A DNA stretch of 15,401 bases from a virus. Its lineage: Duplodnaviria; Heunggongvirae; Uroviricota; Caudoviricetes. The stretch lies in the IMG/VR virus record IMGVR_UViG_2547132277_000010. One strand, given 5' to 3'. This document shows positions 2,110 to 15,401 of the stretch, one piece after another (position 1 is the stretch's first letter; each line of letters starts with the position of its first letter). The translations under genes were made by a program, and so were the position numbers. Under the pieces are notes generated by a model. It saw only the letters and a list, made by a program, of their open reading frames with translations, did not search any database and was not told where the DNA came from.

Positions 2110-2188
2110 GAATATCTCCTTCGTTACCGATTAAATCTTTCATCTGACGAATGAATTCTTCGTCTGACCAGTTATCTGTAAAACTCAT
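2030..2188 (-). CDS. hypothetical small acidic protein, 52 aa (MSFTDNWSDEEFIRQMKDLIGNEGDIHVTCNHSEGEQVTETHVHAESSLVSP)
   Basis: Translated by hand. Its ATG overlaps the TGA of the Kil-like ORF (ATGA), suggesting translational coupling. Sits in the lambda gam position. Confidence 0.4.
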   Translation of the reverse strand: MSFTDNWSDEEFIRQMKDLIGNEGDIHVTCNHSEGEQVTETHVHAESSLVSP

Positions 2189-2337
2189 TTCCTGCGATAC
2201 CACGGAAGGTTGATAGCTGATTTTATCGCTTTATTTGCTTCAAGCCACATTTTTGAATCACCAATAAATCTGGCTATTACTGCTTTGTTTTGTGCTGCAC
2301 GAAGCATCTGGTGATTGATGGCTATTTCATTGCGCAT
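2185..2337 (-). CDS. kil: Kil-like small protein, 50 aa (MRNEIAINHQMLRAAQNKAVIARFIGDSKMWLEANKAIKSAINLPWYRRK)
   Basis: Translated by hand. GGAGG lies 5 nt upstream of the ATG at 2337. It is the gene immediately after the cIII-like gene, as in lambda (cIII then kil), and has an FIGD-containing motif that I recall from lambda Kil. Recollection, not verified. Confidence 0.45.
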   Translation of the reverse strand: MRNEIAINHQMLRAAQNKAVIARFIGDSKMWLEANKAIKSAINLPWYRRK

Positions 2338-2456
2338 AACGCCTCCAGTTGTTTCTTTGCTGCTCTGATTAATTGTTTAACTCGGCGTGATAATTCAGAT
2401 TCGTGCGGGTAGAAAGCGGACATGACGCCGCTACCCGCGAGCTGAAAGTGCATCAT
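2322..2456 (-). CDS. cIII: cIII-like protein (FtsH/HflB inhibitor family), 44 aa (MMHFQLAGSGVMSAFYPHESELSRRVKQLIRAAKKQLEALCAMK)
   Basis: Translated by hand. AAGGAG lies 6 nt upstream of the ATG at 2456. The pattern LAG-x7-P-x-ES-x-L-x-R(I/V)-x-x-LIR parallels lambda CIII (AIAGWPVAGCPSESLLERITRKLRDGWKRL, from memory). Overlaps the kil-like ORF by 16 nt. Confidence 0.6.
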   Translation of the reverse strand: MMHFQLAGSGVMSAFYPHESELSRRVKQLIRAAKKQLEALCAMK

Positions 2457-2523
2457 GGGTAACTCCTTATATTTGATTGCATAACGAAAAACGCCTCGAG
2501 TGAAGCGTTATTGGTATGCATAT

Positions 2524-2547
2524 AAAAAGGCCCTCACATTGGAGGGC
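2524..2547 (-). terminator. GC-rich hairpin (GCCCTC / loop / GAGGGC) followed on the minus strand by UUUUU; tL-like terminator or attenuator between the N-proximal genes and cIII
   Basis: Stem 2530-2535 pairs with 2542-2547; the plus-strand AAAAA at 2524-2528 is a U-run on the minus strand. A weaker hairpin AACGC/GCGTT at 2490-2509 lies next to it. Confidence 0.35.
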
Positions 2548-2651: not shown

Positions 2652-2966
2652 TTAATAAAACACCCAATTTTCTGTTTCTTGGTTGTGTCCAAAGTTATAT
2701 TCAATATCTGGTGTTGATGTATCAATATTCTTCATCCCATCAACAAGAGTTGATACAACAGCCAAATCTTGTTTGATTCTCATCAAATGGTATTTCTTCC
2801 GGCGCAATAAACTTTCAATGGCAAGTTTCTTCGTCGGGAATGCAAAAGATCTTTCTGCATTTTTTGCTACTTTCTTAATTGCATATCTATTTCTCCTTTG
2901 TTTCCATTCCTGTAACCACTGATTTGGTGCTGGTTTAAAATTAACAATCCAATGCGCAGGAACCAA
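2652..2966 (-). CDS. hypothetical basic protein, 104 aa; doubtful start (TTG); may be the downstream half of a frameshifted gene together with 2867..3187
   Basis: The track ORF begins at TTG 2966 with no in-frame ATG until M62. The reading frame is open back to a stop at 2999..2997 and overlaps the 3' end of the 106 aa ORF. Confidence 0.3.
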   Translation of the reverse strand: MVPAHWIVNFKPAPNQWLQEWKQRRNRYAIKKVAKNAERSFAFPTKKLAIESLLRRKKYHLMRIKQDLAVVSTLVDGMKNIDTSTPDIEYNFGHNQETENWVFY

Positions 2967-3187
2967 CCATGCATAATGCTCTGTCTGATGAAAAGCTTAT
3001 ATTGAAGTGCGAATATTTTGATTCCATCTTCTTCAACTGTCGCTTGGAATCTCCAGAAAACAGGCATTCCATCATGTTCAGTTTCTGATTTAGGAAAAGG
3101 TACGCTCCATGATTTTGTCATATCTAACCTCAAATAAGTGGTTTGCTGCCAAAACAATGAACCATCCGGAAATTCCAGATAGTTCAT
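2867..3187 (-). CDS. hypothetical protein, 106 aa
   Basis: ATG at 3187 overlaps the TGA of the upstream 74 aa ORF (ATGA). Its last ~33 codons overlap the 104 aa ORF and look less protein-like. Confidence 0.5.
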   Translation of the reverse strand: MNYLEFPDGSLFWQQTTYLRLDMTKSWSVPFPKSETEHDGMPVFWRFQATVEEDGIKIFALQYKLFIRQSIMHGWFLRIGLLILNQHQISGYRNGNKGEIDMQLRK

Positions 3188-3411: not shown

Positions 3412-3795
3412 TTACCTGGCTGTCAGTTGTTTTGATTTCCGGTAGCCTGCTGCGTAAAGAGCTACATTTGGAAGACATACACCAGTTTCTGGTTGCTTAT
3501 GTCCAAACTCATTCGCGTACACAATGGCCGCTCGCTCCAGATTGCGTCTGTATTCTTTCTGTTGCCAGATCACGTCCTGTGCCATGAACTTAATTGGCTT
3601 AGCGTCTTCTATGCGCTCAGGCGTTTCGTGAGTACCTTTAGCCTGAATCTGCGCTCTGCTTAGAGTAGGGCGGTGTAATACTTCTGAACTTATTGCTTCT
3701 TCGCGGGCCAGCACGCCGTTAGCTAATGCCTTTGCCTTTAAACGCTCACGACGACGAGAACGTGAATTGCCTTTGAACTGAGTTCTGCGTGTCAT
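3412..3795 (-). CDS. N: N-type transcription antitermination protein (P22 gp24-like), 127 aa
   Basis: AGGAGG lies 5 nt upstream of the ATG at 3795. N-terminal arginine-rich motif (NSRSRRRERLKAKALA) and C-terminal LPNVALYAAGYRKSKQLTAR, matching the P22 gp24 C-terminus LPGVALYAAGHRKSKQITAR as I recall it. Confidence 0.85.
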   Translation of the reverse strand: MTRRTQFKGNSRSRRRERLKAKALANGVLAREEAISSEVLHRPTLSRAQIQAKGTHETPERIEDAKPIKFMAQDVIWQQKEYRRNLERAAIVYANEFGHKQPETGVCLPNVALYAAGYRKSKQLTAR

Positions 3796-3960
3796 ATAGA
3801 CCTCCTGATGAACTTTGGTGGTGTGGTAGGTGGGAGACCCATTTCGACCTGTTTCGGCCTACTTCAATTCGGCAATAGTCCCGCAGGCCTCGCCGCTTTA
3901 CGTGCGACATATTCCTGTCCATGAACCCTTCACCACACCCCAAAGTTCACTTTGGTTATT

Positions 3961-3975
3961 GCGCTTTGTCAGCGC
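3961..3975 (-). promoter_or_regulatory. nutL boxB hairpin (minus-strand RNA GCGCUGACAAAGCGC)
   Basis: Plus strand gcgctttgtcagcgc. On the leftward transcript this is a 4 bp GC stem with loop UGACAAA, identical to the P22 boxB as I recall it. Lies between the candidate pL and N. Confidence 0.6.
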
Positions 3976-4044
3976 CGTAGATTCTTGCTTGAATCGTTGT
4001 ATATTCACCGCCCTGGTGAGTAGTGCGTCCTGCTGATGGCGATA

Positions 4045-4083
4045 ATAATGAACCAATAGTTCGATATTATCAAGAACTATTGG
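4045..4083 (-). promoter_or_regulatory. candidate pL promoter (-35 TTGATA at 4073..4068, 17 bp spacer, -10 CATTAT at 4050..4045) overlapped by a 10 bp inverted repeat operator CCAATAGTTC-N11-GAACTATTGG
   Basis: Hexamers and inverted repeat (4053-4062 / 4074-4083) read from the sequence. The core AGTTC-N11-GAACT recurs in the cI/cro intergenic region as CAGTTC-N11-GTACTG. Confidence 0.4.
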
Positions 4084-4256: not shown

Positions 4257-4286
4257 AGAAAACCCGGCGCTGAGGCCGGGTTTTTC
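4257..4286 (-). terminator. bidirectional intrinsic terminator (AAAA-AACCCGGC-GCTGAG-GCCGGGTT-TTTTT) ending the cI / accessory-gene operon
   Basis: 8 bp GC-rich stem with runs on both sides, placed directly after the stop of the 258 aa ORF. Confidence 0.65.
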
Positions 4287-5062
4287 TAGGCTACCAGAGA
4301 CTCAATCCAAGAGTCTCTGGTATGGAATGGCAACACTCGTGCGGTATCATTAAATAGTAGTGATAGTTGCTGTAGCTCAGGTGTTAACCCATCGCTGTCA
4401 ACTATTACAAATCTATTGTTTATGTCAGGAACGACCTGACTTAAGTCAACAATCTTCCCAACTGTTGAGTGGGCAGTATTCCATCCCTTACTGCTGGCAA
4501 GGCTTACCGTAAACCCGCGTTTTGGTGGTATTAGTCGAGACTCATTCCTTAGCGTTAACGGAACAGTAATGTTATGCCCACTAATACCTTTCACTTTTTC
4601 CTTTAAGGCTAGTCGCTTCCCAAGCCCTGCTGATTTTAAGTAACTGATTACACATTTTTCGAACTTATCGTCTTTGACCTCAGCATACCAATCAGCAGTT
4701 TGGGCGGATGCAAGAATCCCACCACGAATAACATTTGCAGTTACCTGTCCAACGGACGACTCATCTGCCCACGCAGATATCTCTCCAGAGTCATTTAATG
4801 AAATTCCTTGCGAAGCGAGTGATGACCTGATCAGATCAATTTTCTTTTTAGTCAGGTGGATGCCGCGTGATTCAATATTCATCAATGTATCGCAGTAGTC
4901 TGTAACCCTATACTGACCACTCATCTCTTGAACGAATACACTTATCTGCTCACAATCATCGTAGTATGTGAATGGACTAATAACGCGCAGCAACGTGTCG
5001 CTCATTGGGTGGCATTCAAACCCGAGCTTAGATATGACTGTTGAACACGTTACATTTCCCAT
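4286..5062 (-). CDS. hypothetical protein, 258 aa; distal gene of a two-gene accessory cassette in the rexAB-equivalent position
   Basis: ATG at 5062 lies 10 nt upstream of the stop of the 180 aa ORF (13 nt overlap); AGGT is upstream. No family recognised and no obvious transmembrane segments. The locus is visibly more AT-rich than flanking phage DNA. Confidence 0.75.
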   Translation of the reverse strand: MGNVTCSTVISKLGFECHPMSDTLLRVISPFTYYDDCEQISVFVQEMSGQYRVTDYCDTLMNIESRGIHLTKKKIDLIRSSLASQGISLNDSGEISAWADESSVGQVTANVIRGGILASAQTADWYAEVKDDKFEKCVISYLKSAGLGKRLALKEKVKGISGHNITVPLTLRNESRLIPPKRGFTVSLASSKGWNTAHSTVGKIVDLSQVVPDINNRFVIVDSDGLTPELQQLSLLFNDTARVLPFHTRDSWIESLVA

Positions 5063-5592
5063 GATAACTGACCTGATTTATCTTGATTAGGTAAAGGTGG
5101 GCTGCCTTCATATATGATATTAAGCGCCTCGCAAAAATAATTCCAGTAGCCAAAAAAATCATCTGGCTTGATGTTCGTTTCAAGCTTAAGTGCAATTTCT
5201 TCCCCAGCTGATTCGAAGTACATGTGATAGTGAGGACCTCGAGCCACCTCAACAAAATCTGGATGGTTCACTATAGATTTATTACGGTGTGGCTTGTTAT
5301 CCGCAGGGTACGGATCAAGCGCGTAAATGCGCCTGTCATGAAGAAACATCACAAATGAAATCTTCACTATATCCACCCCTTCAACGATAGGAGGACGCCA
5401 GTGAAGCATAAATCTTATGCCTGTGATTGGGTTGCCAATTTCATCAAAAGCTTTGAGATCCAATTTAAACCAGATTGGGGTTCGTCCCTCACTTCCGGTC
5501 CATGTAACTCCGCTAAAAGTTACTTTTTTCAAGCGAGTAATAGCTTGGTCAACCTCTTTCTGGGTAGGCTTAAAGTCGCCTTTTTTAGCCAC
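5050..5592 (-). CDS. hypothetical protein, 180 aa; proximal gene of the accessory cassette downstream of cI
   Basis: Longest ORF begins at GTG 5592 with no nearby in-frame ATG; GGTGA lies about 9 nt upstream. Same strand as cI, 97 bp downstream of its stop. No family recognised. Confidence 0.7.
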   Translation of the reverse strand: MAKKGDFKPTQKEVDQAITRLKKVTFSGVTWTGSEGRTPIWFKLDLKAFDEIGNPITGIRFMLHWRPPIVEGVDIVKISFVMFLHDRRIYALDPYPADNKPHRNKSIVNHPDFVEVARGPHYHMYFESAGEEIALKLETNIKPDDFFGYWNYFCEALNIIYEGSPPLPNQDKSGQLSWEM

Positions 5593-5689: not shown

Positions 5690-6397
5690 TCACGAACTTT
5701 TCAGCCACTCCCTTGCCTCGATGTCATCCAGATGGCGAGATTGCTTCAGAATACCAGCCACATACTCCACCTTTGCTACTTGATGATAAGGCAACGTTAT
5801 TGGCCTATGGTCCTGGTTGATGCTTGTAAACTGGTATTCTCCGTCTCTGTCATAGCCAAGAACTTTGATCATGTTGTGTCCTTCAACGGTTCTGACAAAC
5901 ACCTCATCACCCGGGAATACTTTGGTGTTAGGCTCAATGAGTACATATTCTCCTGATTTTATTCTAGGCCACATGCTGTCTCCTTTCACACGAAGACCAA
6001 AGGCATCTGGATCATCGCTATAAATCTTGAGCCACCCATCGCGCTCTTCGGTCATCTCGATGGCACCATCAACACCAAGAATTGCCTCACCAACCACGCG
6101 CACTAACCCTTTTTTTAATTTGCCAACAAATGAAAGAGTATCTTCATCATTCGCTCCATTTAACGAAGTGCCGTGCTGAAGCCAAACAACATCAACGTTT
6201 AGAAATTTCGCAAGCGCATTCATTTTTTCCTGACGCGGTAAAGACTCAGCATTAAACCACTTGCTAACGCCTTTGGACGAAAGAGAAAGGGCACGGGCTA
6301 TAGCCATTCCCCTACCATGTTCATCAAGACCAGCTTCTTTACAGGCTTGCGCTAGCCGCTGGGCGAATTCTTTGCGCACTTTTTCATTCTGAACCAT
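5690..6397 (-). CDS. cI: CI-type prophage repressor (N-terminal HTH, C-terminal LexA-like S24 peptidase domain), 235 aa
   Basis: HTH region MAIARALSLSSKGVSKWFNAES and C-terminal GDSMWP...VLIEP motifs typical of autocleaving repressors. Divergent from the cro-like gene. No Shine-Dalgarno before the ATG, consistent with a leaderless pRM transcript as in lambda. Confidence 0.9.
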   Translation of the reverse strand: MVQNEKVRKEFAQRLAQACKEAGLDEHGRGMAIARALSLSSKGVSKWFNAESLPRQEKMNALAKFLNVDVVWLQHGTSLNGANDEDTLSFVGKLKKGLVRVVGEAILGVDGAIEMTEERDGWLKIYSDDPDAFGLRVKGDSMWPRIKSGEYVLIEPNTKVFPGDEVFVRTVEGHNMIKVLGYDRDGEYQFTSINQDHRPITLPYHQVAKVEYVAGILKQSRHLDDIEAREWLKSS

Positions 6398-6404
6398 GAG
6401 TACG

Positions 6405-6457
6405 ATACTAAAGCACTTGCAAAAACTTTCAGTTCAATCATAATGTGTACTGAAAGT
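6405..6457. promoter_or_regulatory. OR/pR/pRM switch region: candidate pR (-35 TTGCAA 6417-6422, 16 bp spacer, -10 CATAAT 6439-6444) with operator-like inverted repeats
   Basis: Inverted repeat ACTTTCAGT (6425-6433) / ACTGAAAGT (6449-6457) and the AGTTC-N11-GnACT arrangement shared with the pL region. A weak pRM -10 (TAGTAT) would place the start at the cI ATG. Confidence 0.5.
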
Positions 6458-6475
6458 ACGAAAAAGGATATTCCT

Positions 6476-6703
6476 ATGCAAAATCTTGATGAGCCGATTA
6501 AAGGTGTCGGCATCCCTGAAGTTGCGAAGGCTTGTGGAGTTAGCGAAAGGGCTGTCTATAAGTGGCTCAAAAACGGCTTCCTCCCTAAGACTGAGTTTTT
6601 TGGGAAAACGAAATACGCATCAAAAATCGAAGAGATTTCTGGTGGCAAATATCAAGCAAGCGAAATGCTTGAAATAAGCAAAAAGAACCTTCTGGCTGCA
6701 TAA
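6476..6703 (+). CDS. cro: Cro-like HTH regulator, 75 aa (start at the internal ATG 6476, not the track's 6443)
   Basis: AAGGA lies 8 nt upstream of ATG 6476. HTH VAKACGVSERAVYKWLKNG. First rightward gene, divergent from cI. Confidence 0.75.
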   Translation: MQNLDEPIKGVGIPEVAKACGVSERAVYKWLKNGFLPKTEFFGKTKYASKIEEISGGKYQASEMLEISKKNLLAA

Positions 6704-6710
6704 GTAACAC

Positions 6711-6756
6711 CGCTATTTTCACAATGGACATTCGTCCTACGTCGCTGACAAAGCGA
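6711..6756 (+). promoter_or_regulatory. nutR: boxA-like CGCTATTTT (6711-6719) and boxB hairpin UCGCUGACAAAGCGA (6742-6756)
   Basis: The boxB loop UGACAAA is identical to the nutL boxB loop. Located directly after the cro stop, as in lambdoid phages. Confidence 0.55.
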
Positions 6757-7183
6757 GCCCCAAGATATCTCCTCTCTGGTTATCTGCATCATCGTCTGCC
6801 TGTCATGGGCTGTTAATCATTACCGGGATAACGCCATCGCCTACAAAGCCCAGCGCGACAAAGCCACATCCATCATCGCTGACATGCAGAAGCGTCAACG
6901 TGATGTAGCAGAACTTGACGCCAGATACACAAAGGAGCTTGCTGATGCTAACGCGACTATCGAAAGTCTCCGCGCTGATGTTTCTGCTGGTCGTAAGCGC
7001 CTGCAAGTCGCCGCCACCTGTGCAAAGTCAACGACCGGAGCCAGCAGCATGGGCGATGGAGAAAGCCCAGGACTTACAGCAGATGCTGAACTCAATTATT
7101 ACCGTCTCAGAAGTGGAATCGACAGGATAACCGCGCAGGTTAACTACCTGCAGGAGTACATCAGGACTCAGTGCCTGAAATAA
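6749..7183 (+). pseudogene. Rz: Rz (i-spanin) homolog truncated at the 5' end; an internal ATG at 6884 could give a 99 aa product lacking the membrane anchor
   Basis: Translation [22 protein letters not shown]...RQRDV...YTKELADA...AGRKRL...QC closely parallels lambda Rz (from memory). The frame opens only after a TGA at 6746-6748; the first ~9 codons and any ATG/GTG/TTG start are absent. Confidence 0.75.
6945..7130 (+). CDS. Rz1: Rz1 (o-spanin) outer-membrane lipoprotein embedded in the +1 frame of Rz, 61 aa
   Basis: AGGAG lies 8 nt upstream of ATG 6945. Signal-peptide-like N-terminus with lipobox LVVSAC followed by a proline-rich mature part ([12 protein letters not shown]), the hallmark Rz1 architecture. 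Confidence 0.75.
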
Positions 7184-7215
7184 TTTTTTTGCAAATCACA
7201 AAGTCCATTTAATGA

Positions 7216-7238
7216 GCCTCGCGATGCGGGGCTTTTTT
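7216..7238 (+). terminator. intrinsic terminator after Rz/Rz1 (GCCTCGC-GAT-GCGGGGC followed by TTTTTT)
   Basis: Hairpin with one G-U pair followed by a six-T run, about 30 nt after the Rz stop. Confidence 0.55.
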
Positions 7239-7385: not shown

Positions 7386-7916
7386 ATGAAGTACCCAACA
7401 GTTATTGTCAATGGTGTGTCCGTTCGTGTTGATGAGGATGGACGCTACAACTTAAACGATCTCCATGCAGCAGCAGTTGCAAATGGAGAGGCTACAGAGC
7501 AACAGCGCCCAAGCCAGTTTTTGCGTAGCGCGCAGATAAAACGCTTCATAAAAGCACTGGAGGCCAAAGTGCAAAAAAGCACTTTGGAACAAATTCAACC
7601 ACTTAAAATAATCAAAGGTGGTGCAGAACCAGGTGTGTGGGGTGTTGAACTTCTGGCAATCAGATATGCAGCATGGATTAAGCCGGAATTTGAAATCGAA
7701 GTTTATGAAGTTTTCAAAACGGTTGTCCGTCTCGGCGTTGGCGCAATGTCCCGTCTGAATAGAATCGATCACATCATCAATACTGAAACCAAAGCGATAA
7801 GCCAGTGCGCAAGCCAAATGGCTAAGTGGGGCGTTGGTGGGCGAAAAAGATTGCTTCATGTTGCACGTGAGAGAGCGGCAAATGAAGTGCAAATGTATTT
7901 GCCCGGAATGGTGTGA
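7386..7916 (+). CDS. KilA-N domain protein, 176 aa
   Basis: AAGGTG upstream of the ATG. N-terminal region (RYNLNDLH...FLR...KGG...GVWGV.LLA..YAAWIKPEFEIEV) fits the KilA-N consensus as I recall it. Confidence 0.7.
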   Translation: MKYPTVIVNGVSVRVDEDGRYNLNDLHAAAVANGEATEQQRPSQFLRSAQIKRFIKALEAKVQKSTLEQIQPLKIIKGGAEPGVWGVELLAIRYAAWIKPEFEIEVYEVFKTVVRLGVGAMSRLNRIDHIINTETKAISQCASQMAKWGVGGRKRLLHVARERAANEVQMYLPGMV

Positions 7917-8505: not shown

Positions 8506-10749
8506 ATGGCAGAAAAAAAGATGACTGACTGGCATCGCAAGGTGCTGTGCAACTTTGATAATGCCTGGTCAGCAACGCAGGATATGCGTGAGCAGATTAT
8601 TGAAGCTCAACGTTTCGTCCGGGTGTCCGGCGCACAGTGGGAAGGCAGCACAAACGCTGGTTACTCATTTGATGAAGGCAGGTTTGAGCATTACCCGCGC
8701 TTTGAGCTGAATAAGATTGCCCGTGAATGTGATCGCATCATTGGCGAGTATCGACAGAATCGCATCAGCGTTAAATTCAGGCCGAAGGATGACAAGGCAT
8801 CGGAAGCGTTAGCCGAAAAGATGAACGGCAAATTCCGCGCTGACTATCAGGAAACATCCGGTGGCGAAGCGTGTGATAACGCATTTGATGATGCTGTAAC
8901 GGGCGGATTCTGTTGTTTCCGCATGTGTGCCGATTACGAAGATGAAATGGACCCAAGTAACGAGCAGCGACGCATCAGCCTTCTTCCTGTTTACGACCCG
9001 GCCACATGCGTCTTCTTCGATCAGGACAGCAAGCAATATGACCGCTCTGATGCTATGTGGGCTATGGAAATGTTCTCCATGACGCCTAAAGCGTTCGAGG
9101 CTGAATACCCTGATTCCATCGCGGCAAGCCTTTCTCGTGATGACACTGGCACTCAATATGACTGGTCAACTCCTGATGCTATCTATGTTGGTCGCTACTA
9201 CGAAGTTCGCATAGAGAAGGTGAAGCTCACAGCATGGCGTAACCCTGTTAGCGGAGAAACGGCAATCTATGATGAAGATCAAATCAAAGATATTGTCGAC
9301 GAGCTGACCGATGGTGCATTCGAACTGATTGGCGAGCGAACGGTGAAGAAGCGCCGCGTTTATTGCGGTCTTCTGTCTGGCGCTGAATGGCTGGAAGAAC
9401 CGAAGCGTATTCCGGGCGAACATATTCCTCTCATCCCGGTATATGGGCGTCGATCATTTGTTGATAATCAGGAGCGAATCGAAGGTCACGCAGCAAAAGC
9501 GATGGATGCACAGCGTCTTGAGAACCTGATGGTTTCCATGATTGCAGATAACGCTACTCAAGCTGGCGGTGATGGCATTCCTGTAGTTGATGTTGACATG
9601 ATTCCTGGTCCTCTCGCCACTCATTGGGCGGAGCGCAACAAAAAGCGCCCGGCGTTCCTGCCGATGGTCAGTCTGAAAAACAAAAACGGAGATATTACTG
9701 CGCAGGCTCAGGTCAGCAGTTATACGCCTCCGACACAAATGCCTCCAGCTCTTGCCGGACTATTGCAGTACACCGGAACGGCTATTCAGCAAATTACAGG
9801 TGCGTCGCAGCTTGAGAACATGCCGAGCAACGTCGCTACCGATACCGTTGATAGCATCTTTAACCGGATGGACACGCAGTCCTATATCTACATGGACAAC
9901 ATGGCTAAATCCATGCGCCGTGCTGGCGTCGTGTGGCTTTCTATGGCTCGTGAAGTCTATGGCAGTGATGCGCCGATGCGTATCGTTAATGAGGACGGCA
10001 GCGATGACGTGGCGCTGATGACTGGTGAAGTGGTTGACCGTCAGACAGGGCAGGTTATCGCGCTTAATGACCTTTCGCAGGGTAACTATGAAGTGACTGT
10101 CGATGTTGGCCAGTCGTTCGCTACTCGCCGTGATGCAACGGTTAAGTCGTTACTTTCCATGCTGGCACTTATCTGGCCACAACGGGCGTTCATCCACTGG
10201 CGCATTCAACTGGCAAAAAGTCTGACCGAGTATAATCGGGTCTATCAATCTGCATTCTCACCGAACTTACTCGAACGCCCGCGTCTGGAAAGCCATCTAC
10301 AAAAACTCCTGACCGATGCCGTGAAAATGCGTGGGCTGATTGCGCCCGCCAGCAAAGAAACCCGTATTCCAAAATCGATATATGAAGGTATCCAGACCAT
10401 TAATCGCAATCTGGTTTGTATGCTGGAGTTGCAAATCAATGCATACTGGGCCACGCGCCCCAGCCATTTCGTGTTATTGAACGCGCAAAAACTTCGTGAT
10501 ACCCAGCATATGATGCAGCAAATACTGCTGAGCCTTGTTCATGCGCTGTACGAAGGTAATCCGCAGCCGGTTTTTGCCAATACGGAAAAATTGAACGATG
10601 CTGTGGAAGAGCTGCGTCAGTTGCTGAATAACCACCATGACCTGAAGGTTGTGGAAACACCAATCTATGGTTATGTGTGGCTGAACATGGAAACGGCACA
10701 TCAGCTTGAGTTGCTATCGAATCTGATTTGCCGGGCCTTGCGCAAATAA
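8506..10749 (+). CDS. P22 gp1-type portal protein, apparently chimeric: portal-like to about residue 555, then ~190 residues of unrelated sequence
   Basis: N-terminal FDNAWSATQDMREQ..., central RRVY...GEHIPLIPVYG and ...VDVGQSFATRRDATVKSLLSML parallel P22 portal segments (from memory). The C-terminal tail (from about 10170) lacks the Q/E/A-rich portal barrel and looks like a different soluble domain. Confidence 0.75.
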   Translation: MAEKKMTDWHRKVLCNFDNAWSATQDMREQIIEAQRFVRVSGAQWEGSTNAGYSFDEGRFEHYPRFELNKIARECDRIIGEYRQNRISVKFRPKDDKASEALAEKMNGKFRADYQETSGGEACDNAFDDAVTGGFCCFRMCADYEDEMDPSNEQRRISLLPVYDPATCVFFDQDSKQYDRSDAMWAMEMFSMTPKAFEAEYPDSIAASLSRDDTGTQYDWSTPDAIYVGRYYEVRIEKVKLTAWRNPVSGETAIYDEDQIKDIVDELTDGAFELIGERTVKKRRVYCGLLSGAEWLEEPKRIPGEHIPLIPVYGRRSFVDNQERIEGHAAKAMDAQRLENLMVSMIADNATQAGGDGIPVVDVDMIPGPLATHWAERNKKRPAFLPMVSLKNKNGDITAQAQVSSYTPPTQMPPALAGLLQYTGTAIQQITGASQLENMPSNVATDTVDSIFNRMDTQSYIYMDNMAKSMRRAGVVWLSMAREVYGSDAPMRIVNEDGSDDVALMTGEVVDRQTGQVIALNDLSQGNYEVTVDVGQSFATRRDATVKSLLSMLALIWPQRAFIHWRIQLAKSLTEYNRVYQSAFSPNLLERPRLESHLQKLLTDAVKMRGLIAPASKETRIPKSIYEGIQTINRNLVCMLELQINAYWATRPSHFVLLNAQKLRDTQHMMQQILLSLVHALYEGNPQPVFANTEKLNDAVEELRQLLNNHHDLKVVETPIYGYVWLNMETAHQLELLSNLICRALRK

Positions 10750-10920
10750 TTCCTAAACTTCAGAATCATCTTGCTGCTGCTTCGATTCAGCAAGGATAAA
10801 GGGTATGATAGTGAAAAGGGATAAAAGCATTGTCATCTGCGGCAGCTATGAGTAATGTTGGCCCTAACGAATAGCGGTTGCTTAAACGAATCCGACTCTC
10901 ACATTATCAGGGGTATAAAA

Positions 10921-11250
10921 ATGGAAACTACCAAGCCTTCATTCCAGGACGTACTGGAATTTGTTCGTCTGTTCCGTCGTAAGAACAAACTGCAACGTGA
11001 AATTCAGGACGTTGAGAAAAAGATCCGTGACAACCAGAAGCGCGTCCTGTTGCTGGACAACCTGAGCGATTACATCAAGCCAGGGATGAGCGTTGAAGCA
11101 ATCCAGGGCATCATCGCCAGCATGAAAGGTGACTATGAAGATCGCGTTGACGATTACATCATCAAAAATGCCGAGCTCTCCAAAGAACGCCGCGATATCT
11201 CCAAAAAGCTGAAAGCTATGGGCGAAATGAAAAACGGCGAAGCGAAGTAA
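10921..11250 (+). CDS. yeeX: YeeX-like DUF496 protein, 109 aa (start at the internal ATG 10921)
   Basis: The translation [28 protein letters not shown]... matches E. coli YeeX as I recall it; the length is 109 aa from this start. Confidence 0.7.
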
Positions 11251-11263
11251 TTCCCGTTTTATT

Positions 11264-11292
11264 CAATGAGGGTTGCCCGGCAACCCTCATTG
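11264..11292 (+). other. perfect 13 bp stem-loop (CAATGAGGGTTGC / CCG / GCAACCCTCATTG) 14 nt after the yeeX stop
   Basis: Read directly from the sequence. No clean U-run follows, so it may be a structured 3' end or a small repeat element rather than a canonical terminator. Confidence 0.4.
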
Positions 11293-11350
11293 CTCATTGA
11301 TTCTTATCTGTGTATCACCGTCATCATTTTCATCTGAGAACCAATCGAAA

Positions 11351-11707
11351 TTAACAACAGCCTTCTTCTGTATGCAGCAAGGCAAAAAGTTCTGTAACTC
11401 CATTGTTATTAACTGCACTGGTTACTAACACGTTGTGCGCTCCAGCTTCCCGTAACCAACTTTTCACCAAAGATATTTGTTCCATGCCGGCTAAATCTGC
11501 TTTGGTTACTACTCCAATGACAGGGTGATTCATGGCCCGGTAGGGCGTTTTTACCTCTAATTCCTGCTTCAGCGCTGAGATTCCTGCTTGTTGCCGGAAA
11601 AGCAGGCACCTGCCGTCTGAACGGTATCGATCCGGAAGCGTATCTGCGCCATATTCTGAGCATACTGCCGGAATGGCCCTCCAACCGTGTTGACGAACTC
11701 CTGCCAT
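11351..11707 (-). pseudogene. fragment of a YeeP/YkfA/YfjP-type GTPase (C-terminal portion only)
   Basis: Contains VIGVVTKADLA...HNVLVTSAVNNNGVTELFALL, like the G4/G5 end of this GTPase family. The N-terminal part is junk and a second overlapping frame (11409..11726) is also open, indicating a degraded gene. Confidence 0.35.
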
Positions 11708-12147
11708 GGAACGTAGTTCTCACCAATAAATAAGCGTCAATACGGTGCTCCGTTGACGCTTACTTTAATCCGTTTTCTGAGCTTAGATTTTTCTGTTCCT
11801 ACCCAGACCGTGGATTTGGAATTCATTTTTTGTCAGGTCAATGCTAATCGTTAAAACGGCCATAACGCACCTCCACTGGAAGGTTTATCAGTAATATCCT
11901 ACCGTTGCTTCATGGTCGGGGCGTCCATTCCATTATTATCGGTTTTCCTTTCTGTTTATAAATGAAAACGCCAGCTGTATTCAGGCTGGCGTCAGGGGAA
12001 ATGAAGCCTGTTGAGTGAGATTCACCGGTTCTGGTGCAGAAGCTGCAGATGGCGCAGGGTAAGGACATCTTCTCTTGCCTGCTTAATACAGGACAACAGT
12101 GCTGTTTCTGTGGTTAATGGCACTATACCCTGCATCACTGCATTGTC

Positions 12148-12342
12148 TTACAGCAACTGGTGAGGGCTGGCATAAGTTGCCGGTGTTTCGGTAGAGTCAC
12201 GGTCATCCACCACGCGGAGTGAATAACCTTTTTCAGCGGCCTTATTAATCAGTTCAGTGATATTAACACCATCAATGTCAACGACAATGTGCCCCATATC
12301 CAGCGCCTGTACGTTAACGCTGTCGGCTTCCAGTGTCATCAT
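12148..12342 (-). CDS. yeeW: YeeW-like small protein, 64 aa
   Basis: Its ATG overlaps the TGA of the restored cbtA reading frame (ATGA). Position and size match the gene that follows cbtA in CP4-44-type islands. Confidence 0.55.
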   Translation of the reverse strand: MMTLEADSVNVQALDMGHIVVDIDGVNITELINKAAEKGYSLRVVDDRDSTETPATYASPHQLL

Positions 12343-12712
12343 TTCGCCTCCGGATACTTACCCAGGGTAATGTTATTTACCGTTCTGTAATTGTCGCGGG
12401 TCATCAGGCCGGTCGCCCTGCGAGCCCGGAGGATATCGATGCTGTTTATTAACTGAGAGCGGGTACAGGCGCTGAATCCCGGCTGGTCGGTAGCACCAGC
12501 GCGTATTTTTCCACGAGAAAGTTCACCGCATCACACAGTGAAATGCCTGCCTCAATATGCTGCTCAATCACACGTTCATCGGCAAAAGGTGTGTCATTCA
12601 GTGTGAGGCCATAGTGCTGGTCCAGCAGTCGGGACAGCAGTATCTGCCAGATTTCAACAGGAGACGGGCGAGAACTGGTCGCCTGCCCGGGTAATACAGG
12701 TAATGTTTTCAT
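12339..12712 (-). pseudogene. cbtA: CbtA (YeeV)-family type IV toxin gene disrupted by a 1-base frameshift near 12493
   Basis: The track ORF gives 87 aa ending ...[19 protein letters not shown]. The next frame continues [46 protein letters not shown], matching the YeeV C-terminus as I recall it. One base appears to be missing after GTGC. Confidence 0.7.
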
Positions 12713-12800
12713 ACTGAAGATTTTCCTGATATGCAGATATAAAAATGGAAAAGTGGCGTGGTGAAAACACCAGGCCGTAGCAGAAGGCTATTCTGGAGAG

Positions 12801-13169
12801 TTAATTTTTCATTTCGGGCGTCGGATAAACAGCCAGATAAACGTAACCACAACTGCTGAGGGTATCGGCTTTGCAGGTCAGCCCTTTTGCATACAGCGTG
12901 ACGGTATGCTGATGGCGGGGATTCAGTTCACCGCTGGTGAGCATGAGTTCCAGTTGTTTCATCAGCAGCGGAAAGGCCTGGTCCAGGTGGTACGCATCTG
13001 CATCGCTGAACAGGCCTCTGATACCGGCGCGGTCGGCAAGGTAATGCAACCGGTTACCCTCCTGCACCAGACGTGCCCCGAAACAGGGCGTCACGGTGCA
13101 GGGCAGCCCCCACCAGGGGCGGTCGTGATTGTCGTCGGGAAGTGTTGTCCCGGGGAGTGTGTCTGACAC
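12801..13169 (-). CDS. cbeA: CbeA (YeeU)-family type IV antitoxin, 122 aa
   Basis: MSDTLPGTTLPDDNHDRPWWGLPCTVTPCFGARLVQEGNRLHYLADRAGI... matches YeeU/YfjZ-family antitoxins from memory. Starts at GTG 13169 with AAGGA upstream. Confidence 0.85.
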   Translation of the reverse strand: MSDTLPGTTLPDDNHDRPWWGLPCTVTPCFGARLVQEGNRLHYLADRAGIRGLFSDADAYHLDQAFPLLMKQLELMLTSGELNPRHQHTVTLYAKGLTCKADTLSSCGYVYLAVYPTPEMKN

Positions 13170-13242
13170 GATAAAATCCTTACAGAAAATCGGCTAAGAA
13201 TGGTCCGGTAGTGGCGATAATTCTGCTCATCAGAATTCCCAC

Positions 13243-13464
13243 TCAGTTCAGGGTGACGCTCATCAGCCGGACATACGGACCAAAACTGTCCTTACGACGT
13301 TCAGCAAACACGGCCAGCACACCGGGAATATCCTGCACTTCACGACCGGTATACGCTTCAGCACTGCCATGCCAGCGGTATTTACCGGTACAGAACGGAA
13401 AAAGACGGGATGTCGGATGTTGTTGGTGAATACGCATGGCTTCACCACGGGTGATAATTTTCAT
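13243..13464 (-). CDS. DUF987 protein (YeeT/YpjJ/YkfH family), 73 aa
   Basis: MKIITRGEAMRIHQQHPTSRLFPFCTGKYRWHG... is typical of this family. GAGGT lies upstream of the ATG. Confidence 0.8.
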   Translation of the reverse strand: MKIITRGEAMRIHQQHPTSRLFPFCTGKYRWHGSAEAYTGREVQDIPGVLAVFAERRKDSFGPYVRLMSVTLN

Positions 13465-13526
13465 AATGGGATACCTCTGAAGACAGAAGATAAAAGTGAA
13501 AACAGGTGTGATGTGGTTGTGAAGGG

Positions 13527-14003
13527 TTAAAGCAGACCATGTTCGGCAAAGGAGAAAACCTGGTTGCCACCGACTATCAGATGGTCCGGCACCCGGATAT
13601 CCACCAGGCCCAGTGCCTGTACCAGACGTTCCGTGATAAGGCGGTCTGCCTTACTGGGTGTGACTTCACCGGAGGGGTGATTGTGTGCCAGCACCACGGC
13701 AGCGGCATTGTGGTACAGGGCGCGTTTAATCACTTCCCGGGGATGGACTTCCGTGCGGTTGATGGTGCCGGTAAAGAGGGTTTCACCGGCAATCAGTTGA
13801 TTCTGGTTATTCAGATACAGCACCCGGAATTCTTCACGCTCCAGTCCCGCCATGTTCAGAATCAGCCATTCCCGTGCTGCACGGGTGGAGGTGAAGGCCA
13901 CGCCGGGTTCATGAAGATGGCGGTCCAGGGTTTTCAGGGCCCGTTGAATGAGGCTGCGCTCGCCGGGCGTCATCTCTCCGGGCAGAAAGGAAAGTTGTTG
14001 CAT
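13527..14003 (-). CDS. RadC-like JAB/MPN domain protein (YeeS/YfjY family), 158 aa from ATG 14003
   Basis: Contains the HNHPSG motif and surrounding RadC-like sequence. GGAGAG lies 7 nt upstream of ATG 14003; the track's ATG at 14018 has no RBS. Confidence 0.85.
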   Translation of the reverse strand: MQQLSFLPGEMTPGERSLIQRALKTLDRHLHEPGVAFTSTRAAREWLILNMAGLEREEFRVLYLNNQNQLIAGETLFTGTINRTEVHPREVIKRALYHNAAAVVLAHNHPSGEVTPSKADRLITERLVQALGLVDIRVPDHLIVGGNQVFSFAEHGLL

Positions 14004-14018
14004 TGTGCTTCTCTCCAT

Positions 14019-14498
14019 TCAGTCGATGATGCGCATAATGGCGCTGCATTCCGGATGCTGCAGGGCGTAATCCCGCAACCGGTAATAATGGACCGTCATG
14101 GCATAATTCTCCGTACGACAGGCATGATGACTGTACGTCATCAGACAGGCGGCAATACCGGCGGCTTCCGGGCTCATTTCTGCGCGGTTACCGTTCATGG
14201 CATTGAACAGTACCCATGTTTCGTCATCATCGTCATCCGGTTCGGGTGCCATAAATGCCCCGCCGTTGTTCAGGGTGTACAGATTCCAGATACCACCGCA
14301 GTAGTCTTCGCACAGACGGTCCATCCAGCCGAAGACACGGGGCTCCAGGGTCACCCACTGTGGAATGAGGCCAAAATGCTGCGGCCAGAAGCTGATGCGC
14401 TGTTCATCAGGGACGAGGCTGGCAACCAACTGAGGCGGATTATTCTCTGGTGTTGTAGCTGAATAAATTGTGGGGGTATTCTGAGAAACGGTTTTCAT
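14019..14498 (-). CDS. antirestriction protein (YfjX/YafX-type), 159 aa
   Basis: AAGGAG lies 7 nt upstream of the ATG. Acidic stretch PEPDDDDDETW and the C-terminal region are typical of this family in CP4-type islands. Confidence 0.8.
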   Translation of the reverse strand: MKTVSQNTPTIYSATTPENNPPQLVASLVPDEQRISFWPQHFGLIPQWVTLEPRVFGWMDRLCEDYCGGIWNLYTLNNGGAFMAPEPDDDDDETWVLFNAMNGNRAEMSPEAAGIAACLMTYSHHACRTENYAMTVHYYRLRDYALQHPECSAIMRIID

Positions 14499-14579
14499 GA
14501 GATAACTCCTTAAATAACAAATAAATGTGTGTTTTTCAGGAACGAAAGCTGAATGATTCCCTCACTCAGGGAAACGGCA

Positions 14580-15401
14580 TCAGCGCAGGCTCTCCAGCAT
14601 CGTTTCTGCCATCACCCACAATGCGCGATTGAGCTTAATGTCGGTATCAATGCTGTGAATGGCACGGGTATGGATACGTTTTCCTTTTGCACTGCGACCG
14701 GAAATCCCGCCTTTCAGCATATTCTCTTGGATGGTCTGATATGCGCTCCACAGGTCCTTACCGTAATCCTCCCGGCGTCGCGGCGTCAGAATGTCGGCGG
14801 TGGTGACGGGCTGATGTTCGTCACCATAACGGTAAGTCAGTGCCGCCTGTGCCAGCGCCTGGCGTGCCGGTGGCGGCAGGACCAGCGACTGCATGGCATC
14901 ACGCTTCTCCTCTATCCGGTCAAACACGCCCACCACCTCGTAAGCCCCTTCGATAACTTTCTCCACTACATTTCCCCGGTGTGGAACACGCACTTCCCCC
15001 AGAGACTGGCCACAGACGCACCCGTTCTGGCAGACGAACCTGAAGTAACCCGGCAGCATCTGGTAGCTGGAGGTACCGTCATGAGAGTTGAGCAGAATAA
15101 TTTCAGGGACATGTTCTCCGTTTATCTCTCCGGCCCGCCGCAGACGCAGCATGTGTTTTGTGTATCCCCGGCGGCCCGGGTCGCGCACACGGGTCTGGCA
15201 GGCGAAGAACGGCTGAAAGCCTTCCCGCTGCAGATTTTCCAGGACGGTAATGGTGGGAATGTACGCATACCGTTCACTGCGGGAGGTGTGCCGGTCTTCC
15301 CCAAAAATACTGGGTACATGGCGTATCAGTTCTTCATGTGTCAGCGGACGGTCACGGCGTATCTGGTTTGCAGCATAACCAAAACGACTTGCTAATCGCA
15401 T
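14580..15401 (-). CDS. DUF932 protein (YfjQ/YafZ family), 273 aa; its ATG is the last three bases of the window
   Basis: Length and sequence character match the DUF932 proteins that precede the antirestriction/RadC/TA module in CP4-type islands. Confidence 0.8.
   Translation of the reverse strand: MRLASRFGYAANQIRRDRPLTHEELIRHVPSIFGEDRHTSRSERYAYIPTITVLENLQREGFQPFFACQTRVRDPGRRGYTKHMLRLRRAGEINGEHVPEIILLNSHDGTSSYQMLPGYFRFVCQNGCVCGQSLGEVRVPHRGNVVEKVIEGAYEVVGVFDRIEEKRDAMQSLVLPPPARQALAQAALTYRYGDEHQPVTTADILTPRRREDYGKDLWSAYQTIQENMLKGGISGRSAKGKRIHTRAIHSIDTDIKLNRALWVMAETMLESLR

What the first reader, a model, noticed from the sequence alone, without database searches (positions are those of the whole stretch)
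3961..3975. P22-type boxB hairpins at nutL and nutR matching a P22-like N protein
The leftward transcript carries GCGCUGACAAAGCGC between the candidate pL and N. The rightward transcript carries UCGCUGACAAAGCGA (6742-6756), preceded by a boxA-like CGCTATTTT (6711-6719), right after cro. Both share the loop UGACAAA. The N protein has an arginine-rich N-terminus and a P22 gp24-like C-terminus. The antitermination system therefore looks intact even though most of its downstream target genes are gone.
Basis: partly seen in the sequence, partly recalled or inferred. Interest (0 to 1): 0.45.

Follow-up and report, generated by a model that had tools for sequence, protein, structure and literature searches.

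The report
Known 933W-type N antitermination sites
The two hairpins are the real nutL and nutR RNA sites of an intact N antiterminator, but they match the well-studied Shiga-toxin phages 933W and H-19B, so this is an ordinary, known module inside a decayed prophage.

Summary
GCGCUGACAAAGCGC lies at 3961-3975 (-) and UCGCUGACAAAGCGA at 6742-6756 (+). Each folds as a 5-bp stem with a GACAA pentaloop. Their shared 11-mer occurs twice, against 0.01 expected by chance.

The N protein (3412-3795, 127 aa, Pfam N_peptide) is 99.2% identical to phage 933W N and 100% identical to N of several Stx1a phages. Window 6711-6756 matches the annotated 933W nutR at 46 of 46 bases. It also matches the H-19B nutR oligos used in published footprinting. 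Window 3961-4027 corresponds to the annotated 933W nutL. cI, the right operator region and cro are 98% identical to 933W.

The nutL boxB is identical to P22 nutL boxB. However, P22 gp24 resembles this N only in the arginine-rich motif and the last 30 residues, and the nut layout is the H-19B kind, not the P22 kind. The boxA-like motif is weak.

All 80 close relatives with enough flank carry the same boxB. More distant relatives keep the stem through compensatory changes.

The leftward targets survive: two terminators, then cIII, kil and an erf-like gene. On the right, a deletion 14 nt after boxB removes cII through R. This is already known biology and of low interest.

The parts
4045..4073 (-). 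Candidate pL promoter (-35 TTGATA, 17-nt spacer, -10 CATTAT), overlapping an operator-like inverted repeat (AACCAATAGTTC / GAACTATTGGT).
   Evidence: Promoter scan. The region is 98% identical to the 933W pL-to-N leader. This is a consensus match plus homology; transcription was not measured.
3961..4027 (-). nutL. It contains a poor boxA-like CGCACUACU (4019-4027), spacer hairpin 1 CACC-AGGGC-GGUG (4005-4019), spacer hairpin 2 GAUUC-AAGCAA-GAAUC (3980-3995), UACG, and boxB GCGCU-GACAA-AGCGC (3961-3975).
   Evidence: Aligns base for base with the nutL feature annotated in 933W. Predicted fold -17.7 kcal/mol, z = -2.84. boxB equals P22 nutL boxB. The same boxB is present in all 79 close relatives that have upstream sequence.
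3412..3795 (-). N antiterminator gene, 127 aa. Arginine-rich motif at residues 9-18 (GNSRSRRRER). C-terminal motif LPNVALYAAGYRKSKQLTAR.
   Evidence: Pfam PF25694 N_peptide, 58.5 bits against a cutoff of 27.9. 99.2% identical to 933W N and 100% to several Stx1a phage N proteins. Residues R3, S11, R15, R18 and L108 match the published H-19B N mutant positions.
2490..2547 (-). Two tandem intrinsic terminators on the leftward transcript: t1 at 2530-2547 and t2 at 2490-2509. Each is followed by a T-run, and both lie upstream of cIII.
   Evidence: Terminator scan. Both exact sequences are also present in 933W and in many relatives. In 933W they flank ea10/ssb; here they are 38 nt apart.
2185..2456 (-). 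Surviving leftward targets: cIII (2322-2456) and kil (2185-2337). An Erf-like annealing protein gene follows at 1367-1930.
   Evidence: PHROG hits for cIII, Kil and Erf-like ssDNA annealing protein. Pfam Lambda_CIII, Lambda_Kil and Rad52_Rad22 in identical public contigs.
5690..6397 (-). cI repressor, 235 aa, with HTH and S24 peptidase domains. It would keep pL and pR, and therefore N, off in the lysogen.
   Evidence: Pfam. 98% nucleotide identity to 933W cI, the right operator region and cro.
6417..6703 (+). Candidate pR (6417-6444) and cro (6476-6703).
   Evidence: Promoter scan. HTH hits. Alignment to 933W pR and cro.
6711..6756 (+). nutR. It contains boxA-like CGCUAUUUU (6711-6719), spacer hairpin GGAC-AUUC-GUCC (6726-6737), UACG, and boxB UCGCU-GACAA-AGCGA (6742-6756).
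   Evidence: 46 of 46 bases identical to the nutR feature annotated in 933W. The sense strands of H-19B oligos RS662, RS663 and RS664 (boxA, spacer, boxB) match 6699-6761 with one mismatch, which lies after boxB. Fold.
6766..6771 (.). Deletion junction. 933W-type homology ends at 6770 and Rz homology begins at 6766, leaving up to 5 nt of shared bases. tR1, cII, O, P, nin, Q, S and R are missing.
   Evidence: The same junction is present in IMG/VR contig L009 (99.99% identity over 9.8 kb) and in NCBI assemblies.
6767..7183 (+). Truncated Rz, lacking roughly its first 7 codons, with the embedded Rz1 ORF. It is now the first sequence downstream of nutR.
   Evidence: ORF list and sequence. Annotated as 'lysis protein' in E. 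coli hits. Pfam Phage_lysis and Rz1 in identical contigs.
7214..7234 (+). Intrinsic terminator after Rz (GAGCCUCGCGAUGCGGGGCUU followed by UUUUUAU). It is the only terminator-like site left between nutR and the KilA-N gene at 7386-7916.
   Evidence: Terminator scan: 9-bp stem with 6 GC pairs.

Best explanation
This is the early-gene antitermination module of a 933W/H-19B-type lambdoid prophage, surviving intact inside an ~11-kb prophage remnant.

Proposed mechanism:
1. When cI repression is lifted, pL and pR fire.
2. The leftward RNA carries nutL and then encodes N. The rightward RNA carries nutR just after cro.
3. The N-terminal arginine-rich motif of N binds the GACAA-pentaloop boxB hairpin in each nascent RNA.
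4. Together with host NusA and NusG, N stays attached to RNA polymerase through its conserved C-terminus and makes the polymerase resistant to terminators.
5. On the left, this lets transcription pass the two tandem intrinsic terminators at 2490-2547 into cIII, kil and the erf-like gene.
6. On the right, a deletion 14 nt after boxB removed tR1 and everything from cII to R. N-modified polymerase would therefore run only into a truncated Rz/Rz1, the terminator at 7214-7234 and the KilA-N gene.

Shown here: the sequences, the predicted folds, identity with the annotated and experimentally used sites, and conservation and covariation in relatives.

Inferred: that the module is expressed and active in this strain.
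For: - Existence of boxB: two exact copies, on the correct strands, against 0.01 expected. Both fold as stable 5-bp/5-nt hairpins.
- N protein: Pfam N_peptide; 99.2% identical to 933W N and 100% to Stx1a phage N proteins.
- Match to 933W: the nutL and nutR coordinates coincide with the 933W record's own nutL and nutR features. The leader is 98% identical and nutR is 46/46. cI, the right operator region and cro are 98% identical to 933W.
- Match to H-19B: the window's N has the ARM 12-RSRRRER-18, the positions of the published nut-binding-defective mutants (R3H, S11F, R15C/P, R18P) and L108. The published antisense oligos to H-19B nutR boxA, spacer and boxB match the window. In that work N with NusA/NusG protected the spacer and boxB and suppressed termination.
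- Match to P22: the P22 nutL boxB is identical. The P22 N-peptide/boxB complex is solved as PDB 1A4T.
- Conservation: 79 of 80 IMG/VR loci with N at 98% identity or more carry the exact nutL boxB. The exception lacks upstream sequence. About 75 carry the exact nutR boxB, although the nutL-nutR distance varies from 1.3 to 3.5 kb because the immunity regions differ.
- Covariation: across 10 distinct boxB sequences of the wider family, 96% of cells pair, 3 of 5 pairs show double changes, and the covariation score is 0.609 against 0.131 in shuffles (0 of 500 shuffles reach it). Sliding the partners destroys pairing.
- Terminators: both left-arm terminators are present and conserved in 933W.
Against: - No experiment has been done on this strain. 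Promoter activity, N synthesis and read-through are inferred from identity with studied phages.
- The boxA-like motif is not above chance. It is polymorphic in relatives. It was unprotected in H-19B footprints. nutL has no good boxA at all.
- The rightward arm has lost tR1 and its natural targets. The sequence from 14 nt after boxB differs from the H-19B nutR/tR1 region used in the experiments. nutR may therefore have no consequence here.
- The gene just downstream of N's neighbour is frameshifted, which shows that decay is under way.
Confidence: 0.93

Rival explanations
1. The module is sequence-intact but biologically inert. It is a relic that has not yet decayed: N is never usefully expressed, or nutR-modified polymerase has nothing relevant to transcribe. 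On this view 'intact antitermination system' is only a statement about sequence.
For: The right operon is deleted from 14 nt after boxB. A neighbouring leftward gene is frameshifted. The portal gene is truncated. cI is intact and would repress pL and pR.
Against: N, nutL, nutR, pL, pR, cI and cro are all 98-100% identical to functional phages and carry no disabling change. The leftward terminators and cIII/kil remain in place. The same remnant occurs in many assemblies.
Confidence: 0.15
2. It is a true P22 module. N would be an orthologue of P22 gp24, working with P22-style nut sites in which a consensus boxA lies close to boxB and NusB/S10 are required.
For: The nutL boxB is identical to P22 nutL boxB. 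The ARM core G-N-x-[KR]-x-R-R-x-E-R and the C-terminal 30 residues are shared.
Against: BLAST aligns only the last 30 residues, and N is 127 aa against 100 aa for gp24. P22 has CGCUCUUUA 9 nt upstream of boxB in both nut sites. Here the boxA-like motif is 22 nt (nutR) or 43 nt (nutL) upstream, with hairpins in between. The P22 nutR boxB is a different sequence. The nearest relatives at 99-100% identity are 933W, H-19B and Stx phages.
Confidence: 0.03
3. The two hairpins are chance palindromes or ordinary terminator stems and have nothing to do with N.
For: Short GC-rich inverted repeats are common. Rfam has no family that reports them.
Against: Two exact 11-mer copies against 0.01 expected. 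Neither hairpin is followed by a T-run. Both coincide with annotated nut sites and with published H-19B oligos. The stem shows compensatory changes across relatives.
Confidence: 0.01

Closest known systems
N / nutL / nutR of Shiga-toxin phages 933W (NC_000924) and H-19B
   Same: N is 99.2% identical. nutR is identical at 46 of 46 bases to the 933W annotation and matches the H-19B boxA, spacer and boxB oligos. The pL-nutL-N leader is 98% identical. cI, the right operator region and cro are 98% identical. The same two leftward terminators are present. The nut layout is the same: a weak boxA, then a hairpin-containing spacer, then UACG, then a GACAA boxB.
   Different: There are a few substitutions in the loop of the second nutL spacer hairpin (AAGCAA against GAAUAU) and in the boxA-like motif of nutL (CGCACUACU against CGCAUUACU). 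Everything beyond 14 nt after the nutR boxB is replaced by a truncated Rz. ea10/ssb is absent from between the two terminators. A DUF1828/DUF6978 gene pair replaces stk between cI and pL.
Salmonella phage P22 gp24 (N) with nutL and nutR; NMR complex PDB 1A4T
   Same: The nutL boxB GCGCUGACAAAGCGC is identical at 15 of 15 bases. The ARM core is shared: GNAKTRRHER in P22 and GNSRSRRRER here. The C-terminal LPxVALYAAGxRKSKQxTAR is also shared, at 21 of 30 residues. The positions relative to pL and cro are the same.
   Different: gp24 is 100 aa, and its central part is unrelated by BLAST. P22 has the consensus boxA CGCUCUUUA 9 nt before boxB and no spacer hairpin. The P22 nutR boxB is CCGCCGACAACGCGG, with a C/C mismatch at the closing position.
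Phage lambda N / nut
   Same: The logic is the same: an ARM protein binds a boxB pentaloop hairpin in both early transcripts, pL-nutL-N lies on the left and cro-nutR on the right, and polymerase reads through downstream terminators. The conserved 5' leader AUCAGCAGGACGCAC is shared (plus my own knowledge of the lambda sequence).
   Different: The lambda loops are GAAAA and GAAGA, and the lambda ARM is MDAQTRRRERRAEKQAQW (from memory). Lambda needs boxA, NusB and S10. From memory, Neely & Friedman 2000 reported that H-19B N has a reduced host-factor requirement. Only the title of that paper was seen here.
N relatives of epsilon34, VT2-Sakai and Enterobacter/Kluyvera prophages
   Same: Same Pfam family and same C-terminus. 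Same leader, spacer hairpins and 'UACG + boxB' layout.
   Different: The ARM is FNGSASGRRRERRAALQ or FKGTAASRRRARRANLQ. boxB carries a 4-nt GAAA loop instead of GACAA.

Membership tests
Lambdoid N / nut antitermination, 933W/H-19B subtype | A small N protein with an N-terminal arginine-rich RNA-binding motif. | tested here: met
   Pfam PF25694 N_peptide, 58.5 bits against a cutoff of 27.9. The ARM RSRRRER at residues 12-18 equals that of H-19B N.
Lambdoid N / nut antitermination, 933W/H-19B subtype | The conserved C-terminal region, said in the literature to bind RNA polymerase. | tested here: met
   LPNVALYAAGYRKSKQLTAR is invariant or nearly so across 9 family members. L108, the site of the published suppressor L108F, is present.
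Lambdoid N / nut antitermination, 933W/H-19B subtype | A boxB hairpin in each early transcript: between pL and N, and just after cro. | tested here: met
   The coordinates coincide with the nutL and nutR features annotated in 933W.
Lambdoid N / nut antitermination, 933W/H-19B subtype | The boxB stem is maintained in relatives, and the loop matches the ARM type. | tested here: met
   96% of cells pair, 3 of 5 pairs carry compensatory changes, and 0 of 500 shuffles reach the covariation score. GACAA loops go with G-[NT]-[SA]-[RK]-x-RR ARMs, and GAAA loops go with GSAxGRRRERR or GTAASRRRARR ARMs. The sample is small: 10 distinct hairpins.
Lambdoid N / nut antitermination, 933W/H-19B subtype | A boxA element upstream of boxB. 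| tested here: inconclusive
   nutR has CGCUAUUUU, matching the consensus CGCUCUUUA at 7 of 9 positions. That is no better than chance in this window, and the motif is polymorphic in relatives. nutL has only CGCACUACU. boxA was not protected by N/NusA/NusG in H-19B footprints.
Lambdoid N / nut antitermination, 933W/H-19B subtype | Terminators downstream of the nut sites that N must override. | tested here: met
   Left arm: two intrinsic terminators at 2490-2547 precede cIII and kil, and both are conserved in 933W. Right arm: tR1 is deleted and only the terminator at 7214-7234 remains.
Lambdoid N / nut antitermination, 933W/H-19B subtype | Demonstrated N-dependent read-through. | not testable with these tools
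   This has been shown in the literature for H-19B N and H-19B nutR, which match the window's sequences. It has not been shown for this strain.
P22 gp24 / nut, strict sense | boxB sequence GCGCUGACAAAGCGC. | tested here: met
   The window nutL is identical to P22 nutL at 15 of 15 bases. The window nutR differs only in the outer pair.
P22 gp24 / nut, strict sense | Consensus boxA CGCUCUUUA about 9 nt upstream of boxB. | tested here: not met
   P22 sequences. In the window the boxA-like motif lies 22 nt (nutR) or 43 nt (nutL) upstream of boxB, with hairpins in between.
P22 gp24 / nut, strict sense | Full-length similarity to gp24. | tested here: not met
   BLASTP aligns only residues 99-127. MAFFT identity is 40%, with a 31-residue gap in total.

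The most novel reading that the evidence does not exclude
The ~11-kb remnant is found with the same junctions in many public assemblies. Its intact cI-N-nut circuit may be kept by selection as an SOS-inducible, N-antiterminated switch for the few surviving genes, rather than being a relic that has simply not decayed yet. Those genes are cIII, kil and the erf-like gene on the left. On the right they are Rz1 and the KilA-N regulator, which the deletion placed directly behind nutR.
Probability: 0.1. Interest if true: 0.3.

Novelty: already known. Interest (0 to 1): 0.1.

Why it matters
It matters little beyond annotation. The result shows that the nut sites and N of this prophage remnant are the already characterised 933W/H-19B module, so the region can be annotated with confidence.

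The practical consequence concerns induction. If the remnant's cI is inactivated, N-dependent read-through could still express kil and cIII, and could carry rightward transcripts across the deletion into the lysis and structural remnants. That may be relevant to the SOS phenotypes of strains carrying it.

Tried and rejected
- Rfam scan of the whole window at gathering thresholds: no family matched, so Rfam has no model that reports these hairpins.
- Sequence search of N against PDB chains: only a chance hit at E = 1.5. The solved N peptides were not retrieved by this search.
- Exact 41-nt junction pattern against the GTDB species representatives: no hit. No complete E. coli RefSeq genome spans the nutR/Rz junction. 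The junction was found instead in IMG/VR contig L009 and in NCBI draft assemblies.
- The first MAFFT alignment of the boxB hairpins put the tetraloop gap at the 3' end. It was discarded and redone with an N placeholder in the loop to keep the stems in register.
- boxA as an independent statistical signal: rejected, with 40 matches against 38.5 expected.
- The Neely & Friedman 2000 paper is not held in the library. Its specific claims on NusB, S10 and boxA independence are therefore cited from memory only.
- The alignment-based search of viral contigs returned only near-identical N genes. Diversity had to come from the GTDB scan and from individual phage records.

Full report
**Observation.** The reverse complement of window 3961-3975 is GCGCTGACAAAGCGC. 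The shared 11-mer GCTGACAAAGC occurs exactly twice, once on each strand. Shuffles give an expectation of 0.01, and 0 of 200 shuffles reach two hits. With one mismatch allowed there are still only these two hits. As RNA, each folds into a 5-bp stem with a GACAA pentaloop, at -7.1 and -5.6 kcal/mol and z = -3.2 and -3.8. The two sites differ only in the outermost pair, G-C against U-A, which is a compensatory change. The only correction is that the loop is GACAA closed by U-A, not a 7-nt UGACAAA loop.

**What it is.** The ORF at 3412-3795 on the minus strand (127 aa) hits Pfam PF25694 'Transcriptional antitermination N peptide' at 58.5 bits against a cutoff of 27.9. By tblastn it is 100% identical to the N of several Stx1a/Stx2a-converting phages. 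It is 99.2% identical to N of phages 933W, Min27, 24B and mEp234.

The RefSeq record of 933W annotates nutL and nutR. Alignment shows that the window's pL-to-N leader is 98% identical to 933W, and that 933W nutL corresponds to window 3961-4027. 933W nutR corresponds to window 6711-6756 at 46 of 46 identical bases. cI, the right operator region and cro are also 98% identical to 933W. The whole immunity and early-regulation block is therefore of the 933W type.

[quoted passage not shown] It isolated nut-binding mutants R3H, S11F, R15C/P and R18P. A second study reports the suppressor L108F in the RNA-polymerase-binding C-terminal domain (PMC4499122). The window's N has exactly those residues at those positions.

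The supplement of PMC3526286 lists oligonucleotides antisense to H-19B nutR boxA, spacer and boxB. Their sense strands match window 6699-6722 and 6720-6741 perfectly. They match 6738-6761 with one mismatch, which lies after boxB. The fourth oligo, 'immediately after boxB', does not match. In that work, N with NusA/NusG protected the spacer and boxB but not boxA. The nutR RNA was described as having two hairpins, which is what the fold shows. The window therefore carries the same N and nutR that have been studied biochemically.

**Comparison with P22.** P22 nutL reads ...CGCTCTTTAACTTCGATGAT-GCGCTGACAAAGCGC. Its boxB is identical to the window's nutL boxB at 15 of 15 bases. This is the RNA of the solved P22 N-peptide/boxB complex, PDB 1A4T, whose G6, A7 and C8 numbering fits this sequence.

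P22 nutR is different: CCGCCGACAACGCGG. P22 gp24 (100 aa) aligns to the window's N by BLASTP only over the last 30 residues, at 21 of 30 identical. In a family alignment the ARM cores also line up: P22 F-A-G-N-A-K-T-R-R-H-E-R against the window's F-K-G-N-S-R-S-R-R-R-E-R.

P22 has a consensus boxA (CGCUCUUUA) 9 nt upstream of boxB in both sites. In the window, nutR has a boxA-like CGCUAUUUU 22 nt upstream, separated from boxB by a GGAC-AUUC-GUCC hairpin and UACG. nutL has only CGCACUACU, followed by two hairpins (CACC-AGGGC-GGUG and GAUUC-AAGCAA-GAAUC) and UACG. 'P22-type boxB' is therefore correct. 'P22-like N' is correct for the RNA-binding and C-terminal ends only. The nut architecture is the H-19B/933W one.

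The boxA-like 9-mer is not above chance on its own, with 40 hits against 38.5 expected. It is also polymorphic among near-identical relatives: CGCTATTTT, CGCTCTTTT and CACTCTTTT.

**Conservation.** Of 80 IMG/VR loci encoding N at 98% identity or more, 79 carry the exact nutL boxB. The exception has only 84 nt upstream. About 75 carry the exact nutR boxB. The nutL-nutR distance ranges from about 1.3 to 3.5 kb, because different immunity regions and accessory genes lie between them. A natural variant of the nutR spacer hairpin, GGGC...GUCC, changes A-U to G-U and keeps pairing.

More distant relatives came from one-per-species genomes and individual phage records. They show that the hairpin persists while its sequence changes:
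- SPN9CC: nutL GCUCC-GUCAA-CGAGC and nutR UCGCU-GACAA-GGCGA.
- epsilon34 and Enterobacter/Kluyvera prophages: CGGCU-GAAA-AGCCG or AGGCU-GAAA-AGCCU.
- VT2-Sakai: UGGCU-GAAA-AGCCA.
- A lambda-like ARM (locus L100): GCGCU-GAAAA-AGCGC.

On an alignment of the 10 distinct hairpins, 96% of cells pair and 3 of 5 pairs show double (compensatory) changes. The covariation score is 0.609 against 0.131 in shuffles, with 0 of 500 shuffles reaching it, and sliding the partners abolishes pairing. The loop type tracks the ARM type. GACAA goes with G-[NT]-[SA]-[RK]-x-RR, and GAAA goes with GSA[SA]GRRRERR or GTAASRRRARR. Both are answered in favour of the finding.

**Surroundings and what N can still act on.** On the left, the order is pL (about 4045-4073), nutL, N, and a 75-aa ORF. 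Next comes a phrog_1636 gene split by a frameshift into 2867-3187 and 2652-2966. Two tandem intrinsic terminators follow at 2530-2547 and 2490-2509. Beyond them lie cIII (2322-2456), kil (2185-2337) and an Erf-like gene (1367-1930). Both terminator sequences are also present in 933W. There they flank ea10/ssb and precede cIII, whereas here they are 38 nt apart. The classical leftward task of N, reading through terminators into cIII and kil, is therefore preserved.

On the right, 933W-type homology ends at 6770, which is 14 nt after boxB. Homology to lambdoid Rz begins at 6766. tR1, cII, O, P, nin, Q, S and R are gone, and Rz lacks roughly its first 7 codons. The next features are an intrinsic terminator at 7214-7234, a KilA-N gene, a gp49-like gene and a P22-type portal gene truncated at about residue 559. 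After that come chromosomal yeeX and CP4-44-like genes.

The same remnant, with the same junctions, occurs in IMG/VR contig L009 at 99.99% identity over 9.8 kb. It also occurs in NCBI assemblies, where it lies between sbcB plus an integrase gene and yeeX. It is absent from the complete E. coli RefSeq set and from the GTDB representatives.

**Mechanism, and what is shown versus inferred.** The sequences, folds, identities and covariation above are shown. Established knowledge of the family, and the H-19B papers read here, establish three points. N binds boxB through its ARM. It acts with NusA/NusG. It suppresses Rho-dependent and intrinsic terminators.

For this strain the following is inferred. 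On loss of cI repression, pL and pR fire and N is made. N binds both boxB RNAs and lets polymerase pass t1/t2 into cIII and kil. On the right, any N-modified polymerase would run into Rz'/Rz1 and possibly past the 7214-7234 terminator.

From memory, Neely & Friedman (Mol Microbiol 2000) reported that H-19B N needs NusA but not NusB/S10, that boxA is dispensable, and that the spacer dyad symmetries matter only through alternative structures. The paper is not held in the library, and only its title was seen here.

**Novelty and score.** This is an already known system, annotated in the 933W reference genome and dissected experimentally in H-19B. It is found here in a decayed prophage. Interest is low, at 0.1.

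The most novel reading not excluded is that the intact cI-N-nut circuit is maintained by selection in this lineage-wide remnant, as an inducible switch for the surviving genes. I put that at about 0.1 probability, with modest interest even if true.

Noticed in passing
window 4286-5592 (-): Two overlapping genes, DUF1828 (258 aa) and a DUF6978-like protein (180 aa), lie between cI and pL. This is the slot where 933W carries stk and lambda carries rexAB. They give weak hits to the PADLOC candidate defence system PDC-M24, component B at 5e-7 and component A at 4e-4. They may be a prophage-encoded anti-phage pair co-transcribed with cI.
   Followed up: partly
window 6766-6771: A deletion junction lies 14 nt after the nutR boxB. 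933W-type sequence ends at 6770 and Rz sequence starts at 6766, leaving up to 5 nt of overlap. cII through R are lost, and the early right transcript is fused to a truncated Rz. The same junction occurs in IMG/VR contig L009 and in NCBI assemblies GCA_041455445.1, GCA_049978745.1 and GCA_002459295.1. It is not in any complete RefSeq E. coli genome.
   Followed up: yes
L103 (epsilon34) 2039-2052 and ~4330; L104 (VT2-Sakai); L084-L088: Some relatives of this N have an ARM of the form FNGSASGRRRERRAALQ or FKGTAASRRRARRANLQ. In both nutL and nutR their boxB hairpins carry a true 4-nt GAAA loop instead of the GACAA or GAAAA pentaloops of P22 and lambda. The residue aligned with P22 K17 (R12 here) is S or A in these proteins. 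I did not find this discussed in the papers searched.
   Followed up: partly
window 2652-3187 (-): A phrog_1636 gene (156-aa family, function unknown) is split into two overlapping ORFs, 2867-3187 and 2652-2966. They match profile positions 1-54 and 53-156, so this is a frameshifted pseudogene in the N operon.
   Followed up: partly
window 2490-2547 (-) versus L001 (933W) 6018 and 6456: The two leftward intrinsic terminators are 38 nt apart here. In 933W they are 438 nt apart and flank the ea10/ssb gene, so that gene appears to have been lost from between them.
   Followed up: partly
window 6711-6719 and relatives: The boxA-like motif of nutR is polymorphic among phages whose N is at least 98% identical. 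It reads CGCTATTTT, CGCTCTTTT or CACTCTTTT, while boxB and the spacer hairpin stay fixed.
   Followed up: partly
window 3925-3960 (-): Directly after the nutL boxB the leader has a further hairpin, CCAAAG-UGAA-CUUUGG. It is followed by GGGGUGUGGUG, which recalls (from memory) the lambda boxC sequence GGUGUGUG. Both are conserved in the epsilon34, SPN9CC and Enterobacter leaders. Their function is unknown.
   Followed up: no
window 8506-10749 (+) and 10855-15401: The P22-type portal ORF matches the portal profile only up to about residue 559 of 747, so its tail is foreign sequence. Downstream lie yeeX (DUF496), a EutP-like fragment, and a CP4-44-like block with a truncated CbtA toxin (87 aa) next to an intact CbeA antitoxin. 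RadC, antirestriction and DUF932 genes follow.
   Followed up: partly
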